Part shown: piece after piece, positions 25,080 through 53,874 of the stretch | Layout: every line of letters begins with the position of its first letter | Position numbering within the stretch: the stretch's first letter is position 1 | DNA from: Minisyncoccia bacterium | GTDB taxonomy: Bacteria > Patescibacteriota > Minisyncoccia > Phycocordibacterales > Phycocordibacteraceae | Assembly (NCBI GenBank): GCA_049305795.1 | Contig: JBAQPM010000006.1 | Location: 38,902 to 102,901, forward strand | DNA length: 64,000 bases | Direction of reading: 5' to 3' | The notes under the pieces: model-generated | The model's database searches: none | What the model saw: only the letters and a program-made list of their open reading frames with translations | What the model was told of the DNA's origin: nothing | Made by a program: the position numbers and the translations under genes

Positions 25080-25093
25080 AAGCGGCGGAAAAA

Positions 25094-25129
25094 TTGACGT
25101 ATTTTAATAGGTGTGTTAGTATAGTTTTA
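25094..25129 (+). promoter_or_regulatory. sigma-70-like promoter (TTGACG ... TAGTAT/TATAGT) preceding a ~200-nt leader
   Basis: TTGACG, a ~17-nt spacer and tagtatagt are present. The downstream ORF starts at 25330. Confidence 0.35.
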
Positions 25130-25329
25130 GATCAAAAACGACCATAAACTAAACCCGAAGTGTCATTTGGACACCTCCTCGCCTGTTTGGGTAATCAGGG
25201 CGCTAGAGGGAGGAAATGCAGGTCGGCTGCATGGTTCGAGGGTTCTTCTCACACCTTATCCCCTTCCGTAAGGAAGCAAGCGGTAGAGAAGCGTATTTGA
25301 GTAATTCGGCTCAGATATGGAGGGTATTC

Positions 25330-25659
25330 ATGACCGTCGTAAAGAAAATCGCGCTCCTTGATGTGGTTCAAAATGGATACGAACCTTATGACCGTAGGTT
25401 TATGTTGCAGATGACTTACGAATTCTGCCTCAAAAATCCTTCTATCATTCGGAACGTGTCATTGGTCAACTTGCTAAGGCAGGTTCGACTTGGAGGTCGG
25501 GTGATTAATGCACCCCACATTTCCTTTGAAATAGATGAAATAACGGAGGCAAAGTGGGAGTTTTTGCTGGATTCGATAGGAAGTTGGGCTGTAAAGCTTG
25601 AAGTCCTTCCCGATGATACTGAAACTACCATTCTGGTTCCGAGCGAGTTCAGGAAATAA
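25330..25659 (+). CDS. hypothetical protein (109 aa)
   Basis: The ATG follows ggaggg. No family is recognised. Confidence 0.5.
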   Translation: MTVVKKIALLDVVQNGYEPYDRRFMLQMTYEFCLKNPSIIRNVSLVNLLRQVRLGGRVINAPHISFEIDEITEAKWEFLLDSIGSWAVKLEVLPDDTETTILVPSEFRK

Positions 25660-25736
25660 CAGTGGCGCTGTCTTCGGACAGCGCCACTTCTTTTATAAGA
25701 TCTAGAGTGTCCTTGAGATAGATTAGAAAACCTCTA

Positions 25737-26243
25737 TTATTCTTTCGAAGGCAATCCAAGTTTATTTCGTACCTCTGAGAGACGTGTGGAATCTTCTCCC
25801 GCAGGTTGTAAATTTTCTGTTTGTTTCTCTTGCACTTGAGAAATGGCCGAAATTTTATTCTCTATTTCTCCAGATTCATTCCTTGCATGAATACCGACAA
25901 GATCGTTGACAGTCACTATTCGTGAACTTGCAATAGAAAAGGGAGCTTCAAGCACCACATGATCGGGTTGAACATTATGGAATTCACCATCCTTTCCACG
26001 TGTCCAATAGACTCTATCGCCATACTTTCGCACTCGTCCGACCCCAGCGCTTCCTGCGTTTCGTACTACTCCGCTAGTCATCAGATCATCAACTGCTCCA
26101 GCTTTAATTTGTCGGTACACATTCTCTGATGTCGTTGGGACATCAGTATTCTTTATCATCACACCCCACTCGAATACGGCATTGGGATTGGAGACAGGCT
26201 CTCTATTTTCAGGTTCTTTGTCAGCTGGAGGAGGTTTTTCCAT
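25737..26243 (-). CDS. hypothetical protein (168 aa)
   Basis: It is a full ORF convergent with the upstream gene. No family is recognised. Confidence 0.5.
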   Translation of the reverse strand: MEKPPPADKEPENREPVSNPNAVFEWGVMIKNTDVPTTSENVYRQIKAGAVDDLMTSGVVRNAGSAGVGRVRKYGDRVYWTRGKDGEFHNVQPDHVVLEAPFSIASSRIVTVNDLVGIHARNESGEIENKISAISQVQEKQTENLQPAGEDSTRLSEVRNKLGLPSKE

Positions 26244-26291
26244 ATGTTTTCAGTATAAGATAATTTGCGAAGATTAAAATCTATACTTTTG

Positions 26292-27514
26292 GTGGACACG
26301 TACAGGACCGCGAGTACGCTAGAGCCTGGAGACGTTCGGAGGTTAGAACCCCTTTTGGGGCTTTAAACTTTTCATATGTGGTCATTGGTACATCATATTA
26401 GAACCTTTCTCGTCCAATCCAGACCAATACATTTCCTTAGGCTGGTGGATTCGTGGGGTAGTCTGGAGGGTCAAAATGGCCTTCGGAGCCTAGAACGGAT
26501 CGGAGATTAGAACCCCTATTACTCCATAGGAAGATATAAGTGGCCGCCTGTTGTTTCTAGCCATCGTTTAATATTCTGCAACATGAGATATGTCCACATT
26601 GCCATTGTCCCAGAAGCTTCTGGCTTAAGAGTGTACACATTCAAAAGTTTATCTACATCACTAGGTGCAAAATCTCCAAAGTCTTCCACCACATGCTCAC
26701 CTTTTCCTTTATTCCTCAATAGGATGAACCTGTTCGGATAGCGTGTATTCTCTGAGTTTATGTCTGTACCTTTAGCTACACTGAAGTTAGCAATCTTCTG
26801 CGAACCAAGGGTGAAATTCTCACGCGTTTCAAAAGAACGCTTGATACTTGCTAACGTATTGCGCATTTCGAGCACTATTAGAATTTGCTCATCATTGAGC
26901 CTTGTAAGTACAAAGTTGTTCTCAAGTATTCTCGAAAAGTATTCGTATATCTCATCCCATGATTTAAACAGCTCAAACCCAGCAAACTTCCGATGCTGAA
27001 TGAGAGTTTCCAACTCCGATGGGGACATTTTTAGAAGGAGTGACGTTTGCGACCATACTCGCCCCCGCCCGAAGCCATAAAGGAACTTTGAGAGCGTGTG
27101 GAGTATGGAGTAAATATCTCTATCAACAATCCTCTTGGCATATTCAAAGACTTCTTTATTTAGTTCTTTCTGTGATCGGGCTTTTATGAGTTCGTAGAGA
27201 AAGAAAGCAAAGAATATTGAAGCAATGTTTGATGATATGGAAAGAAACCAATTATTCCAGAGTTGATTTGAAATGAAGTAAGAAAGATAAAAGAAAACCC
27301 CAGCTGTGATTGCTAAGGAGATATAAGGAATTGTTCTCCAGAAAGTCTTCCCAAATATTGTTCGCATTACTTAATGATACCTCGCAAGTGGGTTCTAGGT
27401 ATCATAGGGGTTTCTGGGATATTAGAACCTACGACGAGTAGGAAATAAAAGACGAAAACTCCCTTTCAGGAGTTTCGTGAACAAATGTGGACCGTACAGG
27501 ACCGCGATTACGCT
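26292..27514. mobile_element. putative integrated-element remnant bounded by 28-29-bp direct repeats that share 15 bp with the tRNA-Ala 3' end
   Basis: The direct repeats are GTGGACACGTACAGGACCGCGAGTACGCT (26292-26320) and GTGGACCGTACAGGACCGCGATTACGCT (27487-27514). The interior is lower in GC than its flanks. Internal repeats GAGCCTGGAGACGTTCGGAGGTTAGAACCCCT (26322-26354) and GAGCCTAGAACGGATCGGAGATTAGAACCCCT (26485-26516) are present, with an inverted partial copy at 27405-27430. Confidence 0.4.
26519..27367 (-). CDS. hypothetical membrane-anchored protein (2 N-terminal TM + cytosolic domain), island cargo
   Basis: The 282-aa ORF is AT-rich, with the RBS gaggt upstream on the minus strand. 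TTAGAACC repeat motifs flank it in both orientations. Confidence 0.5.
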   Translation of the reverse strand: MRTIFGKTFWRTIPYISLAITAGVFFYLSYFISNQLWNNWFLSISSNIASIFFAFFLYELIKARSQKELNKEVFEYAKRIVDRDIYSILHTLSKFLYGFGRGRVWSQTSLLLKMSPSELETLIQHRKFAGFELFKSWDEIYEYFSRILENNFVLTRLNDEQILIVLEMRNTLASIKRSFETRENFTLGSQKIANFSVAKGTDINSENTRYPNRFILLRNKGKGEHVVEDFGDFAPSDVDKLLNVYTLKPEASGTMAMWTYLMLQNIKRWLETTGGHLYLPME

Positions 27515-27739
27515 TTTTGACCTCGAGTCCAACACTCTAATATTTAAATCCGTACAGGCACGGCTTCGCCTTTTGGTCACGACTCACTAAGTTCGAGGAC
27601 TCGCTAAGTGGTCTCGACCCCGACTCGACAACAGGTTTCGCGGACTCAACCTGGCTTCGCGTCTCCGTCTTTCAAATCCTGTACGGTCCTACAAAAACAA
27701 TAGTCGCCCAATGCTTTCGCATCAGGCTCCTTTGTTTTG

Positions 27740-27812
27740 TGGACCGTACAGGATTTGAACCTGCGACCCCCTCATTGCAAATGAGGTGCTCTACCAACTG
27801 AGCTAACGGCCC
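27740..27812 (-). tRNA. tRNA-Ala (anticodon TGC)
   Basis: The cloverleaf folds by hand: acceptor GGGCCGT/ACGGTCC with G3:U70, anticodon loop TTTGCAA, T-loop TTCAAAT. No CCA is encoded. Confidence 0.85.
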
Positions 27813-51735: not shown

Positions 51736-52605
51736 ATGGAAACCACCGTTGTATCTCCAGCTAAAAATATTTCAATAATTAAAGCCGATGGGGCAGTAGA
51801 GCGTTTTGAGCCTGAGAAACTTGCGGCCTCGCTCCGCAGGGCCGGGGCAGGAATGCACACCGCAGCTCGTATTGCCGGTACCATCACGGCGACGGCTCCG
51901 AAAGAAGTAAATTCCCACGAAGTATATCGAAAAGCGTTTGCCATGTTGCGCCGAGAGGCGCGGCCTGCGGCCGCACGCTATGCGCTTCGACGCGCGCTTC
52001 TTGAATTCGGTCCCTCGGGACATCCTTTCGAAGATTTTGTTGCGCAACTCTTTAGTTCAGAAGGTTGGAAGGTCGAGTGGCGCAAAATCATTAAAGGAAG
52101 GTGTGTTTCTCACGAAGTCGATGTGTACGCGACGCGAGGAAATGAAACCATGGCTGCCGAACTTAAATATCATAATGACGCTTTTTACAAAACCGATGTA
52201 AAAGTTGCCCTCTATGTGAAGGCGCGTTTTGACGATATCTGGAACTGCGATCCTCGTGTAAAAACATGCCCTATGGATCGCGGATTTCTTATCACCAATA
52301 CGAAATTCACGAGCCAGGCCATCGACTATGGAACCTGCGCGGGCATTGAACTTGTTGGCTGGAACTATCCTGAACAAGGAAATCTGTATGACCGCATCAT
52401 TGCCTCCGGACTCTATCCCATCACAACGCTGACGATGCTTAAAAAAGCCGAAAAAAAACTGCTCATCAACAATGGCATTGTTACCTCCTCAATGCTTCGC
52501 GACAACCGGGAAGCACTCCGCTCTATCGGTGTTCCCTCAGAGCGAATTGGAGGTATACTCGGAGAGATTGAATCACTGCGCTCACCCATGTCCTATGCCA
52601 CCTAA
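51736..52605 (+). CDS. ATP-cone domain fused to Mrr-cat restriction-endonuclease-like domain
   Basis: An N-terminal ATP-cone-like segment IIKADGAVERFEPEKLAASLRRAG is followed by an Mrr_cat-like segment FEDFVAQLFSSEGWKVEWRK...HEVDVYATRGNE...KYH. Confidence 0.65.
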   Translation: METTVVSPAKNISIIKADGAVERFEPEKLAASLRRAGAGMHTAARIAGTITATAPKEVNSHEVYRKAFAMLRREARPAAARYALRRALLEFGPSGHPFEDFVAQLFSSEGWKVEWRKIIKGRCVSHEVDVYATRGNETMAAELKYHNDAFYKTDVKVALYVKARFDDIWNCDPRVKTCPMDRGFLITNTKFTSQAIDYGTCAGIELVGWNYPEQGNLYDRIIASGLYPITTLTMLKKAEKKLLINNGIVTSSMLRDNREALRSIGVPSERIGGILGEIESLRSPMSYAT

Positions 52606-53091: not shown

Positions 53092-53874
53092 ATGGCTTTC
53101 GGCGGATATAAATTAAAGTGGGAGAAAGGGCGTTTTGACCCTTCTTCTAAAGAGCCCTACACACTGAGCCGTTCAAAAGTAGAACGATACTTGGAATGTC
53201 CGCGCTGTTTTTGGCTTGAAGCCCGCTATGGCATTGGAAGGCCTGATACGCCACCTTTTACGCTTAACAACGCCGTTGATGAGTTGTTCAAAAAGGAATT
53301 TGATATACATCGCGCAAAAGGCGAACCGCATCCACTCATGAAAACGTACGGCATAGATGCTGTGCCTTTCAAACACGAGAAAATGGAAGAATGGCGTGAC
53401 GCGTTCAAACGCGGTATTAAGTATCACCACACACCAACGAATCTTATTTTTCGTGGCGGGATTGATGACGTGTGGCAGGGAAAGAATGGGGAGCTATATA
53501 TTGTTGATTACAAAGCCACTGCCGGAAAAGACGAAGTAACGCTCGACGATGAGTGGAAAGATGCCTATAAGCGTCAAATTGAAATGTATCAGTGGCTCTT
53601 TCGCCATAATGATTTTACGGTTTCTCCTACCGCCTATTTCGTATACGCCAATGGCGACAATGATAAAAAAGCTTTCGATGGGAAACTCGAATTTGATATC
53701 ATTATCCTGCCCTATGAAGGAGATGATTCCTGGGTGGAAGGTACCCTTACGGATCTCAAGACATGTTTGATGGATGATGAAATTCCAAAACCTGGATCTC
53801 GTTGTGAATACTGCCCCTATCGTGAGCACGCCGGCAAAACGTTGCTTTCACTCGTAAAAGCAAAGAAAAAATAA
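53092..53874 (+). CDS. PD-(D/E)XK nuclease, Cas4/RecB-like with four Cys
   Basis: An N-terminal CPRC is followed by the core GGIDDVW...YIVDYKAT and a C-terminal CEYCP. This is a Cas4-like Fe-S architecture. Confidence 0.7.
   Translation: MAFGGYKLKWEKGRFDPSSKEPYTLSRSKVERYLECPRCFWLEARYGIGRPDTPPFTLNNAVDELFKKEFDIHRAKGEPHPLMKTYGIDAVPFKHEKMEEWRDAFKRGIKYHHTPTNLIFRGGIDDVWQGKNGELYIVDYKATAGKDEVTLDDEWKDAYKRQIEMYQWLFRHNDFTVSPTAYFVYANGDNDKKAFDGKLEFDIIILPYEGDDSWVEGTLTDLKTCLMDDEIPKPGSRCEYCPYREHAGKTLLSLVKAKKK

What the first reader, a model, noticed from the sequence alone, without database searches (positions are those of the whole stretch)
26292..27812. tRNA-Ala(TGC)-associated integration islet bounded by direct repeats that copy the tRNA 3' end
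A 28-29-bp direct repeat (GTGGAC[A]CGTACAGGACCGCGA[G/T]TACGCT, at 26292-26320 and 27487-27514) brackets about 1.2 kb. Its first 15 bp equal the 3' end of the adjacent tRNA-Ala (GTGGACCGTACAGGA). A second ~32-bp direct repeat pair (26322-26354 and 26485-26516) and an inverted partial copy (27405-27430) carry TTAGAACCCCT motifs. They sit at both ends of the single cargo ORF (26519-27367, minus strand), in the manner of terminal inverted repeats. The interior is clearly lower in GC than the flanks. tRNA 3'-end duplication is the signature of site-specific integration, yet no integrase is present. This suggests a decayed or non-autonomous element whose cargo is a 2-TM protein of unknown function.
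Basis: seen in the sequence. Interest (0 to 1): 0.68.

Follow-up and report, generated by a model that had tools for sequence, protein, structure and literature searches.

The report
tRNA-Ala-anchored gene cassette array
Downstream of a tRNA-Ala gene in an uncultivated Patescibacteria (Minisyncoccia) genome lies a short array of swappable single-gene cassettes separated by conserved repeat modules that imitate the tRNA's end, so this is a recombinase-less integration hot spot, and one cassette carries a probable membrane-acting anti-phage effector.

Summary

**What bounds the cassette.** The 282-aa gene is not simply bracketed by copies A and B. It is one cassette of a tRNA-Ala(TGC)-anchored array. 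Each cassette has three parts:
- a leader (P', 60-118 nt) with a hairpin and a GGTTCTAAT box;
- the cargo ORF;
- a ~145-nt R module that starts at the stop codon and ends in a degenerate copy of the tRNA tail (AGGTTCTAAT...CCAC).

**Relatives.** The same modules flank other cargo in related genomes: L108, L087 and L115. In L115 they flank a homolog of the window's 168-aa gene.

**E2 and copy A.** A separate 252-bp ORF-less insert (E2, 27487-27738) lies between the tRNA and the array. It is bounded by a 16-nt repeat of the tRNA end, holds a previously unnoticed inverted copy, and is cleanly absent in L087 and L108. Copy A is a remnant of this second type.

**Recombinase.** None is encoded in the 64 kb. 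A large serine recombinase abuts the same tRNA in the syntenic relative L094.

**Cargo.** The cargo family sits next to bSEFIR and PDC-S06 defence genes elsewhere.

**Verdict.** A new variant of tRNA-linked, non-autonomous integrative elements with integron-like organisation.

The parts
27739..27812 (-). tRNA-Ala(TGC), intact. It is the anchor (attB-like site) of the array, and its last 16 nt is core copy C.
   Evidence: ARAGORN. Rfam tRNA model, 72.6 bits. An identical or near-identical tRNA lies next to Ddl/Pterin4a in syntenic relatives.
27487..27738 (-). E2, a 252-bp ORF-less insert between the tRNA and the cassette array, bounded by a 16-nt direct repeat of the tRNA end.
   Evidence: It is a clean indel against L087 and L108, where the P' leader follows the tRNA directly. 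Its interior has no homolog in any held locus and no significant fold (z = -0.2 and -0.7). Rfam and ARAGORN find nothing.
27706..27727 (-). Terminator-like hairpin directly after the tRNA, inside E2.
   Evidence: Terminator scan. It is flanked by A-rich and T-rich runs, so it could act in both directions (sequence).
27671..27689 (+). Copy D, a perfect 19-nt inverted copy of the tRNA T-loop to acceptor end; its trailer also resembles the tRNA's trailer.
   Evidence: Inverted repeats I2 and I6. Exact 13-mer match on the opposite strand. Self-match of the E2 head.
27487..27514 (-). Copy B, made of the tRNA-tail core (27487-27501) plus the 13-nt E2 tail arm (27502-27514).
27368..27486 (-). P' leader of cassette 1. 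It contains TTTGTTCAC, a hairpin at 27455-27476, a GGTTCTAAT box at 27421-27429 and an inverted half-box at 27391-27397.
   Evidence: nhmmer E = 1.5e-26. The homologous module follows the tRNA in L087 (86% identity over the first 100 nt) and in L108. The hairpin stem differs between the window and L108 while pairing is kept.
26519..27367 (-). Cargo 1, a 282-aa protein with two N-terminal transmembrane helices and a conserved ~210-aa C-terminal domain.
   Evidence: ORF. It is full length against 9 homologs. AlphaFold2 model with mean pLDDT 81. Homologs lie next to bSEFIR and PDC-S06 defence genes.
26378..26521 (-). R module. Box1 is at 26506-26514, just after the stop codon. Box2 is at 26397-26405. 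The module ends in a degenerate tRNA-tail mimic (26378-26405, ...GACCAC).
   Evidence: nhmmer E = 2.6e-47. Other copies lie in L108 (two), L087, L115 (two) and L085 (weak), and none in 74 unrelated loci. The tail mimic is significant against shuffles. No conserved RNA structure.
26321..26377 (-). Short leader of cassette 2, with ATATG, a hairpin and a GGTTCTAAC box at 26342-26350.
   Evidence: partial R/box match, 26356-26321; equivalent leader before the 168-aa homolog in L115.
26292..26320 (-). Copy A, made of the E2-type tail arm, a core with a 1-nt insertion, and an A-rich trailer. It is a remnant or joined junction of a second E2-type unit.
25737..26243 (-). Cargo 2, a 168-aa protein of unknown function.
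   Evidence: Its 77%-identical homolog in L115 is flanked by R modules on both sides. No family match reaches a curated cutoff.
25700..25736 (-). Degenerate box1 (R remnant) directly after the stop codon of cargo 2. This is the decayed distal end of the array.
   Evidence: Repeat D5 (25720-25733). The sequence TAATAGAGGTTTTCTAATCT resembles TAATAGGGGTTCTAATCT after cargo 1.
25661..25688 (.). Perfect 12-bp hairpin that could terminate transcription in both directions, lying between cargo 2 and the convergent 109-aa ORF.
   Evidence: (I7).
25330..25659 (+). 109-aa ORF of unknown function inside the low-G+C variable block. Whether it belongs to the array is undecided.
   Evidence: No family hit. 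No homolog in any syntenic locus.

Best explanation
**What it is.** The 2.7 kb between the pterin-dehydratase gene and tRNA-Ala(TGC) is an integration hot spot. It holds a tandem array of small, non-autonomous gene cassettes.

**Inferred integration model.**
- Each cassette would circularise as R, core, then P'. This junction is an attP-like site of roughly 210-270 bp.
- Its centre (AGGTTCTAAT...CCAC) imitates the T-loop-to-3'-end of the tRNA gene.
- It carries three direct GGTTCTAAT boxes, themselves T-loop look-alikes, which probably bind the recombinase or accessory proteins.
- A site-specific recombinase encoded elsewhere would cross over at or next to CCAC. The new cassette then lies directly after the tRNA, its own hairpin terminating the tRNA transcript, and older cassettes are pushed outward.

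**In this window.**
- Two cassettes remain: the 282-aa and the 168-aa genes.
- There is a decayed distal end.
- Two products of a second, ORF-less unit type are present: E2, which is complete and the most recent insertion, and copy A, a remnant.

**Cargo.** The 282-aa cargo is most likely a signal-activated, membrane-disrupting effector of anti-phage conflict systems, here without its usual partner.

**Shown versus inferred.**
- Shown: the repeats, the module homology across genomes, the different cargo, the E2 indel and the lack of a recombinase in the window.
- Inferred: circular intermediates, the crossover point, the type of recombinase and the cargo function.
For: **Repeats are non-random.**

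**E2 is a clean 252-bp indel.** It is flanked by the 16-nt tRNA-end repeat and is absent from L087 and L108.

**The modules recur only in related genomes, in clusters, flanking different cargo**.
- L108: a CAAX-protease-like gene plus a 223-aa ORF in one cassette, and a 128-aa LRV/HEAT-repeat ORF in the next.
- L087: about 400 nt without an ORF.
- L115: the homolog of the 168-aa gene.
- 74 unrelated loci (about 0.7 Mb): no hit.

**Junction logic fits attL / attP-like / attR**.
- tRNA|P' in L087 and L108.
- R|P' between cassettes.
- R|unrelated flank at the end of the L108 array.
- Homology always breaks right after CCAC.

**The R end resembles the tRNA tail.** It scores better than shuffles in 5 of 6 copies (0-13 of 2000).

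**R looks like a DNA element, not an RNA.** It is conserved in sequence but not in structure.

**Module conservation exceeds that of neighbouring genes**.
- P' is 86% identical over 100 nt between the window and L087, whose neighbouring proteases are 54% identical at the protein level.
- R is 78-80% identical between the window and L108, whose Ddl genes are 66-67% identical at the nucleotide level.

**The region is variable and compositionally distinct.**
- Seven syntenic relatives have other sequence after the tRNA.
- G+C is 0.395-0.43 against 0.475 for the window.

**A recombinase targets this tRNA elsewhere.** A large serine recombinase gene abuts and overlaps the same tRNA-Ala in the syntenic relative L094.

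**Cargo evidence.**
- Homologs lie 0-12 nt downstream of, or overlapping, bSEFIR (E = 7.8e-97), PDC-S06 (E = 1e-136) and DUF5677 genes, and 46 nt downstream of a RelA/SpoT-like gene.
- In other family members the two transmembrane helices are replaced by a weak CAP12/Pycsar-TIR-like N-terminus (4 of 8 proteins).
Against: - No recombinase is encoded in the 64 kb, and none has been linked to the R/P' modules.
- No circular junction or excision polymorphism of an R-type cassette was seen. Only E2 shows presence versus absence.
- Module conservation is only moderately higher than that of the neighbouring genes, so vertical inheritance plus homologous exchange is not excluded.
- Only five genomes with R modules were available, because the metagenome and genome scans were exhausted.
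- The three boxes are direct repeats, which fits arm-type sites of a tyrosine integrase better than the simple att sites of the serine recombinase found in L094.
- The inverted copy D and the recurring ~200-nt ORF-less units remain unexplained.
- The TIR-like matches of the cargo relatives fall below Pfam's curated cutoffs.
Confidence: 0.58

Rival explanations
1. R and P' are conserved chromosomal intergenic modules (terminator, promoter or regulator-binding sites) of this lineage, not recombination sites. Cargo turnover would come from homologous recombination between these portable homologies after DNA uptake, as in the 'minimal mobile elements' of Neisseria (my own knowledge). Their resemblance to the tRNA tail would be a fossil of old events.
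For: - Module identity is only 60-86% between genomes, which is compatible with vertical descent under constraint.
- P' contains a hairpin with compensatory changes that would terminate the upstream transcript.
- Boxes sit just after stop codons and before start codons, as regulatory sites might.
- No recombinase is nearby.
Against: - The modules occur only in clusters next to, or a few cassettes from, tRNA-Ala. They never occur elsewhere in 64 kb.
- Homology between junction types breaks at one precise point, right after CCAC.
- The R end mimics the tRNA tail significantly.
- P' directly abuts the tRNA in two genomes.
Confidence: 0.22
2. One reading: one decayed element carrying the 282-aa gene, whose two ends are the 28-29-bp repeats A and B.
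For: A and B are 27/29 identical, include the tRNA tail and lie 1194 bp apart around the ORF.
Against: - Both copies carry the same side arm (tail arm plus core), as two tandem units would. They do not carry the opposite arms expected of the two ends of one element.
- Between B and A lie a complete P'-ORF-R cassette, a further degenerate core (26378-26405) and the leader of the next cassette. All of these have homologs with other cargo elsewhere.
- A's trailer resembles the E2 head, so A looks like a joined or scarred E2-type junction.
Confidence: 0.1
3. The segment from copy B to copy D (27487-27693, plus strand) is a gene for a ~200-nt structured RNA whose paired ends imitate the acceptor/T minihelix of tRNA-Ala, convergent with the tRNA.
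For: - A 13-bp perfect terminal stem gives fold z-scores of -3.7 and -3.5.
- Analogous units with an inverted tRNA-like end lie after tRNA-Ala in L099, L103/L106 and L109.
- L099 and L109 keep a hairpin at the same place with different sequence.
Against: - Without the terminal stem the interior folds no better than shuffles (z = -0.2 and -0.7).
- Interiors of the units are unrelated in sequence.
- The two arms are each copies of the tRNA gene and its genomic trailer, not of a CCA end. In L099 they differ so as to break a pair.
- No Rfam, tRNA or tmRNA hit even with permissive settings.
Confidence: 0.06

Closest known systems
Tandem genomic islands at ssrA in Dehalococcoides, including islands without an integration module (PMC3146451)
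   Same: - Several islands lie in tandem downstream of a small RNA gene, each bounded by a direct repeat of its 3' end.
- A conserved motif sits next to the repeats.
- Some islands lack any integration genes.
- In the integrase-bearing islands a large serine recombinase gene on the reverse strand abuts attL and holds the repeat. L094 shows the same arrangement here.
   Different: - The units here are single genes of 0.25-1.4 kb, not islands of many kilobases.
- The inter-unit module is long (roughly 210-270 bp) with three boxes.
- The repeat is a degenerate mimic rather than an exact 20-mer.
- The anchor is tRNA-Ala and the host is a Patescibacteria (CPR) bacterium.
Cis-mobilizable elements (CIMEs) and site-specific accretion, as reviewed for ICEs and IMEs (PMC5704250)
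   Same: Elements that keep att sites but have no integration or transfer genes. They sit in tandem at the 3' end of a tRNA gene and are presumed to move with a helper's recombinase.
   Different: CIMEs are defined as decay products of ICEs or IMEs. Here nothing indicates descent from a conjugative element, and the same compact module architecture recurs with different single-gene cargo. That looks designed rather than decayed.
Tycheposons of Prochlorococcus (bioRxiv 10.1101/2020.12.28.424599)
   Same: - tRNA-proximal islands in a streamlined genome.
- Successive integrations push older elements outward.
- Neighbouring elements are separated only by partial tRNA copies.
- Remnants and partial tRNAs are scattered through the island.
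- The cargo is adaptive or defence-related.
   Different: Tycheposons carry a tyrosine recombinase and replication genes and are several kilobases long. The units here have neither.
Integron cassette arrays (my own knowledge of the system)
   Same: - Co-oriented, mostly single-ORF cassettes.
- Each cassette is followed closely after its stop codon by a repeated recombination-site-like module.
- New cassettes enter next to a fixed primary site.
- Cassettes lack their own recombinase.
   Different: - No intI gene and no attI site; the primary site is a tRNA gene end.
- The R module is not an imperfect palindrome and shows no conserved hairpin.
- It lacks the R''/R' core motifs.
2TM and TIR effectors of cyclic-nucleotide defence systems such as Pycsar and CBASS (comparison for the cargo only; my own knowledge)
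   Same: - An N-terminal two-helix membrane module is joined to a conserved soluble C-terminal domain.
- In relatives the membrane module is swapped for a TIR-like domain.
- The genes lie directly after defence or signal-generating genes.
   Different: - No match to any PADLOC, Pfam or PDB family reaches a curated cutoff or significance.
- The C-terminal domain is not a recognised nucleotide-binding fold.
- In the window the gene has no partner.

Membership tests
tRNA-targeting site-specific integrative element / genomic island | Located immediately 3' of a tRNA gene. | tested here: met
   The array starts at the last base of tRNA-Ala(TGC). P' abuts the tRNA in L087 and L108.
tRNA-targeting site-specific integrative element / genomic island | A direct repeat of the tRNA 3' end lies at the distal boundary. 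| tested here: met
   There is an exact 16-nt copy (B), a 15-nt copy with a 1-nt insertion (A) and a degenerate copy at the end of R.
tRNA-targeting site-specific integrative element / genomic island | Presence/absence polymorphism with a precise empty site in relatives. | tested here: met
   E2 is precisely absent in L087 and L108. Cassettes differ in cargo between genomes. No precise empty site was seen for an R-type cassette.
tRNA-targeting site-specific integrative element / genomic island | The element encodes its own integrase. | tested here: not met
   The cassettes hold one ORF each and none is a recombinase. No recombinase domain appeared in the 26 window ORFs scanned or by tblastn.
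Cis-mobilizable element (CIME) | Keeps attL and attR but lacks integration and transfer genes. | tested here: met
   Junctions are of tRNA|P' and R|flank type, and no mobility genes are present.
Cis-mobilizable element (CIME) | Derived by decay from an ICE or IME and mobilised by a related helper. | not testable with these tools
   No helper element or ancestor was found. Viral-contig scans for R and P' returned nothing.
Integron | An intI tyrosine recombinase gene with an adjacent attI site. | tested here: not met
   No recombinase was found in the window. The primary site is a tRNA gene.
Integron | attC sites, meaning imperfect palindromes that fold as single-stranded hairpins with R''/L''/L'/R' boxes. 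| tested here: not met
   R carries direct, not inverted, boxes. The consensus fold energy is only -4.6 to -8.9 kcal/mol with no supporting covariation.
Integron | An array of co-oriented, mostly single-ORF cassettes, each followed by a repeated site. | tested here: met
   Seen in the window (two cassettes), L108 (two) and L115 (at least three).
MITE / IS-derived repeat | Terminal inverted repeats, target-site duplication and dispersed copies. | tested here: not met
   R and P' have direct boxes and occur only at this locus in 64 kb. The inverted repeat of E2 (B and D) does not span the indel defined by L087 and L108.
tRNA-like RNA or tmRNA gene (for E2) | Matches a tRNA or tmRNA model, or has a conserved structure. 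| tested here: not met
   Rfam at E <= 1. ARAGORN run with intron, tmRNA and low-threshold options. Interior fold z = -0.2 and -0.7.
Known anti-phage defence system (for the 282-aa cargo) | A significant match to a PADLOC model or a defined system architecture in the locus. | tested here: not met
   The only hit is a weak 'gop' match over the membrane helices (E = 0.0037). There is no partner gene in the window. Association with bSEFIR and PDC-S06 holds only for homologs in other genomes.

The most novel reading that the evidence does not exclude
Minisyncoccia and related Patescibacteria (CPR) bacteria possess a dedicated, integron-like gene-capture system that has not been described.
- The 3' end of tRNA-Ala serves as the primary insertion site.
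- Single-gene cassettes carry a recombination module of roughly 210-270 bp (R-core-P') built from T-loop look-alike boxes.
- A host- or helper-encoded recombinase, possibly the large serine recombinase type seen at this tRNA in L094, shuffles the cassettes. It would also generate the ORF-less ~200-nt units with mirror-image tRNA ends.
Probability: 0.3. Interest if true: 0.75.

Novelty: new variant of a known kind. Interest (0 to 1): 0.55.

Why it matters
Patescibacteria (CPR) have tiny genomes, and very little is known about how they gain genes.

**Gene flow.** A compact cassette array anchored on a tRNA gene, with no recombinase of its own, would be a simple route for accessory and defence genes to move in these organisms. 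The module HMMs built here could be used to screen for further arrays across the phylum.

**The module itself.** It imitates the tRNA end and repeats a T-loop-like box three times. That makes it a concrete, testable recombination substrate.

**The cargo.** The 282-aa family has 297 representative clusters and no annotation. It sits next to bSEFIR and PDC-S06 genes, and in some members the membrane helices are swapped for a TIR-like domain. It is therefore a candidate new effector module of anti-phage systems.

**If the rival holds.** If the modules turn out to be ordinary conserved intergenic sequence, the finding reduces to a routine variable region beside a tRNA.

Tried and rejected
- **Close homologs of the protease.** The nearest are 54-57% identical. 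Downstream synteny is kept, but ARAGORN called no tRNA-Ala in those loci. Later sequence search showed that the L087 and L088 contigs start inside the tRNA.
- **Viral-contig scans.**
  - The tRNA tail 19-mer gave nothing.
  - The B-type 18-mer gave one hit inside a high-G+C coding region, judged to be chance.
  - R and P' gave nothing.
- **Phage and plasmid collections.** No match for the cargo protein or the R region.
- **E2 as a tRNA, an intron-containing tRNA, a tmRNA or a known RNA family.** Rejected.
- **E2 inverted copy as a retroelement primer-binding site.** Rejected, because the inverted copies mirror the genomic trailer (ACA...) and not a CCA end.
- **R as a structured RNA or an attC-like hairpin.** Rejected.
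- **The ~400-nt ORF-less cassette of L087 as a known RNA.** No Rfam hit, and fold z-scores of only -2.2 and -0.9.
- **Remnants of the 282-aa gene in L087.** None found.
- **Literature.** Searches for Patescibacteria with integrase, tRNA and genomic island, and for Candidate Phyla Radiation with integron and gene cassette, found no description of such arrays in the searchable library.
Full report
**1. Observation**

The window carries an intact tRNA-Ala(TGC) at 27739-27812 on the minus strand (Rfam 72.6 bits).
- Copy A (26292-26320) and copy B (27487-27514) match at 27 of 29 aligned columns.
- The non-tRNA part of the repeat, CAGGACCGCGAKTACGCT, occurs only at these two places, with 0.05 matches expected by chance.
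- TGTGGACCGTACAGGA is identical at 27486-27501 and at the tRNA end, 27738-27753.
- The second pair, 26322-26356 and 26486-26520, is 35 nt at 80% identity.
- TTAGAACC occurs four times in 64 kb, always on the plus strand and always between 26343 and 27429.
- G+C is 0.395 in the 282-aa ORF and 0.432 for 25080-27738, against 0.475 for the window.

Two things were missed.
- A perfect 19-nt inverted copy of the tRNA T-loop-to-acceptor segment lies at 27671-27689 (copy D).
- A degenerate tail copy lies at 26378-26405.

The supposed terminal inverted repeat at 27405-27430 is mostly a direct copy of the box.

**2. Organism and neighbourhood**

The flanking protease is 100% identical to a protein of a 'Minisyncoccia bacterium' MAG on a 156-kb contig. 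This is a Patescibacteria (CPR) genome. Almost every gene in the window is a core gene on the plus strand: UvrABC, Ddl, ATP synthase, aminoacyl-tRNA synthetases and ribosomal proteins. The tRNA-Ala and the two ORFs downstream of it are among the few features on the minus strand.

**3. Related loci**

One metagenome scan with the 19-nt tRNA tail returned 25 loci.
- By tblastx and blastn, L091, L094, L096, L105, L107, L110 and L111 share Ddl, mostly with UvrC and/or Pterin4a, with the same tRNA-Ala directly adjacent and codirectional. What follows the tRNA differs in each.
- L108 has the window's arrangement, with the tRNA convergent with Pterin4a and 2.3 kb between them.
- The L087 and L088 contigs, found through protease homologs, begin inside the tRNA-Ala. 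They show the order tRNA, variable DNA, then protease.
- The ancestral order therefore seems to be Ddl-Pterin4a-tRNA-[variable]-protease. In the window the tRNA plus its variable DNA is inverted as a block.

**4. The cassette architecture**

Aligning the window with L108, L087 and L115 shows two conserved non-coding modules.

*The R module (~145 nt; window 26521-26378).*
- It begins at or just after the stop codon of the cargo ORF with box1, GGTTCTAATCTC.
- It has an invariant middle, ...CCACGAATCCACCAG.CTAAGGAAATGTAT.GG...
- It ends with box2, AGGTTCTAATAT, about 20 further nucleotides, and then (G/A)ACCAC.
- This end resembles the tRNA tail AGGTTCAAATCCTGTACGGTCCAC better than shuffles in 5 of 6 copies (0-13 of 2000 shuffles).

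*The P' module (60-118 nt).*
- It starts (A/C)TTTGTTCAC.
- It has a hairpin whose stem sequence differs between the window and L108 while pairing is kept.
- It then has box3, GGAGGTTCTAAT, followed by the next ORF.

*Where the modules occur.*
- nhmmer finds R in the window, in L108 (two copies), L087, L115 (two copies) and weakly in L085.
- It finds nothing in 74 unrelated loci, about 0.7 Mb.
- P' follows the tRNA directly in L087 and L108.

*Cargo between the modules differs.*
- Window: the 282-aa protein.
- L108: a CAAX-protease-like ORF plus a 223-aa ORF in the first cassette, and a 128-aa LRV/HEAT-repeat ORF in the second.
- L087: about 400 nt without an ORF.
- L115: a 77%-identical homolog of the window's 168-aa protein, with R on both sides.

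The window's 168-aa gene is thus a second cassette. It has a short leader with a box (26321-26377) and a degenerate box1 right after its stop codon (25720-25733).

**5. Junction logic**

All junction types share ...CCAC, and homology breaks immediately after it.
- tRNA|P' in L087 and L108, and copy B|P' in the window.
- R|P' between cassettes, at L108 R1 and L115.
- R|unrelated flank at the end of the L108 array.

This is the pattern expected for attL, attP-like and attR junctions of tandemly integrated elements that recombine at one defined point.

R is conserved in sequence but has no conserved secondary structure on either strand. The consensus energy is -4.6 to -8.9 kcal/mol with no supporting covariation. 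Rfam has no match. It therefore behaves as a DNA site. The three direct boxes, each one mismatch from the T-loop segment GGTTCAAAT, are good candidates for protein-binding sites.

Conservation is somewhat above that of the neighbouring genes.
- P' is 86% identical over its first 100 nt between the window and L087, whose proteases are 54% identical at the protein level.
- R is 78-80% identical between the window and L108, whose Ddl genes are 66-67% identical at the nucleotide level.

**6. The 252-bp unit E2 and copy A**

Between the tRNA and copy B the window has 252 bp that L087 and L108 lack precisely. Reading in tRNA sense, the segment holds the following.
- A terminator-like hairpin (27727-27706).
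- The inverted tail copy D.
- About 150 nt with no ORF and no significant fold. Folds of the 175-nt interior 27502-27676, which includes the 13-nt tail arm, give z = -0.2 and -0.7. No homolog exists in any held locus.
- The 13-nt arm AGCGTAATCGCGG.
- Core copy B.

The strong fold z-scores of the whole unit (-3.7 and -3.5) come only from the 13-bp pairing of B with D. ARAGORN with permissive settings and Rfam find no tRNA, tmRNA or other family.

Copy A repeats the tail arm, the core and an A-rich trailer like the head of E2. It sits inside the leader of the 168-aa cassette, so it looks like a scar or joined junction of a second unit of this type.

Similar ORF-less units of 190-252 nt lie after tRNA-Ala genes in other loci.
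- Each is bounded by a direct copy of the tRNA end.
- They occur in L099, L100 and L106, with a partial one in L109.
- Most have a mirror-image copy just past the terminator.
- Their interiors are unrelated.
- L099 and L109 share a hairpin at the same place within the mirror copy, with different sequences.

I cannot explain the mirror copies. They reflect the genomic trailer rather than a CCA end, which argues against a primer-binding site. The two arms do not co-vary, which argues against an RNA stem.

**7. Recombinase**

None was found in the window.
- All 26 window ORFs scanned against Pfam gave non-recombinase families or nothing. The remaining ORFs were judged only by reading their N-terminal sequences.
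- tblastn with a serine recombinase hits only the tRNA antisense.

In the syntenic relative L094, a 509-aa ORF on the reverse strand runs into the 3' end of the same tRNA-Ala. It matches the Pfam Resolvase (6.1e-34) and Recombinase (1.4e-9) domains. This is the arrangement described for the ssrA islands of Dehalococcoides (PMC3146451). It shows that site-specific recombinases target this tRNA in the lineage. It does not show which enzyme acts on R/P'.

**8. Cargo**

*Architecture and family size.*
- The 282-aa protein has two N-terminal hydrophobic helices and a conserved C-terminal domain with invariant VVEDFGDF and PNR motifs.
- Its AlphaFold2 model has mean pLDDT 81.
- It has no match in Pfam, PHROGs or PADLOC beyond a weak hit over the membrane helices.
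- It has no informative fold match.
- A word-indexed search found 9 homologs. A full profile search found 297 representative clusters.

*Genomic context of homologs.*
- Homologs lie directly after, overlapping or within 12 nt of, a bSEFIR gene (PADLOC 7.8e-97), a PDC-S06 ATPase (1.1e-136) and a DUF5677 protein.
- One lies 46 nt after a 1048-aa RelA/SpoT-like protein.
- Some stand alone, without an adjacent partner gene, including one inside a mobile element carrying TrwB and a serine recombinase.

*Domain swap.* In some relatives the membrane helices are replaced by about 160 residues that weakly match the CAP12/Pycsar TIR domain. This holds for 4 of 8 proteins, with E = 0.0009-0.005, below the curated cutoff. 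Swapping a membrane module for a TIR module on a common C-terminal domain is the pattern of signal-activated abortive-infection effectors (my own knowledge of Pycsar and CBASS).

I therefore infer a membrane-acting effector with a sensor domain, present here without a partner.

*Other ORFs.* The 168-aa and 109-aa proteins remain without a functional lead.

**9. Comparison with known systems**

- Closest are tandem tRNA- or tmRNA-anchored islands that include integrase-less members. These are the Dehalococcoides ssrA islands (PMC3146451), CIMEs and accretion (PMC5704250), and tycheposons, in which neighbouring elements are separated only by partial tRNAs (10.1101/2020.12.28.424599).
- The organisation is integron-like: co-oriented single-gene cassettes, each followed by a repeated site, entering next to a fixed primary site. 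The defining integron features are absent, namely intI, attI and palindromic attC.
- The locus is not a MITE and not an RNA gene.
- I found no description of such arrays in Patescibacteria in the searchable literature. That covers only this library.

**10. Verdict**

This is a tRNA-linked integration site with non-autonomous cargo, but it is an array built from two unit types, and A and B are not the ends of the cargo element.
- The best explanation is site-specific cassette integration by a recombinase acting in trans, with confidence about 0.58.
- The main rival is conserved intergenic modules with homologous exchange, at about 0.22.
- Novelty: a new variant of a known kind.
- Interest: 0.55.

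Noticed in passing
window 25737-27812, compared with L087, L094, L096, L105, L107, L110 and L111: Nearly all genes in the window are on the plus strand, but the tRNA-Ala and its cassettes are on the minus strand. In seven relatives the tRNA is codirectional with Ddl/Pterin4a or with the protease. The tRNA-plus-array block therefore appears inverted in the window and in L108.
   Followed up: partly
L094 770-2299 (minus strand): A 509-aa large serine recombinase ORF (Pfam Resolvase plus Recombinase domains) has a C-terminal reading frame that runs into the antisense of tRNA-Ala(TGC). L094 is a syntenic relative carrying Ddl-Pterin4a-tRNA.
   Followed up: partly
L099 3064-3327; L100 7016-7285; L106 139-421; L103 around 4731; L109 1-173: ORF-less units of 190-252 nt lie after tRNA-Ala genes. 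Each is bounded by a direct copy of the tRNA end, and most have a mirror-image copy of the tRNA tail just past a terminator. L106 has an extra ~230-nt stretch, with a second, ~80%-similar copy of the unit head, relative to its close relative L103. L099 and L109 keep a hairpin of different sequence at the same place in the mirror copy.
   Followed up: partly
L092 2801-2927; L097 1982-2109; L112 222-347: A different tRNA-Ala(GGC), about 79% identical, is followed about 25 nt later by a perfect 30-nt fragment of the 3' part of the window-type tRNA-Ala. This is another displaced tRNA tail in an unrelated genome.
   Followed up: no
L110 228-258 and 334-354: Perfect 31-nt and 21-nt fragments of the 5' half of the tRNA-Ala lie upstream of the intact gene, between it and Pterin4a.
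   Followed up: no
L090-L114 (contig ends): Eleven of the 25 metagenome loci end within 750 nt downstream of the tRNA-Ala, and the L087 and L088 contigs end inside it. Assemblies often break here, as expected for a repeated or population-variable region. The evidence is weak because contigs are short in general.
   Followed up: no
L087 125-535: The 'cassette' between P' and R holds about 400 nt of G+C-rich sequence with no ORF over 50 aa and no Rfam match. Fold z-scores are -2.2 and -0.9. It could be a decayed cargo or an unknown RNA.
   Followed up: partly
window 51736-52605; 53092-53874; 1258-1590: An ATP-cone domain fused to an Mrr-type restriction endonuclease domain, a PD-(D/E)XK nuclease, and a small GIY-YIG protein are scattered among the core genes.
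   Followed up: no
P0228, P0252, P0253, P0284 (relatives of the 282-aa protein): In these members the C-terminal domain of the cargo family is fused to an N-terminal region that weakly matches the CAP12/Pycsar TIR domain, in place of the two membrane helices. P0278 and P0284 are about 600 aa and carry further unassigned sequence.
   Followed up: partly
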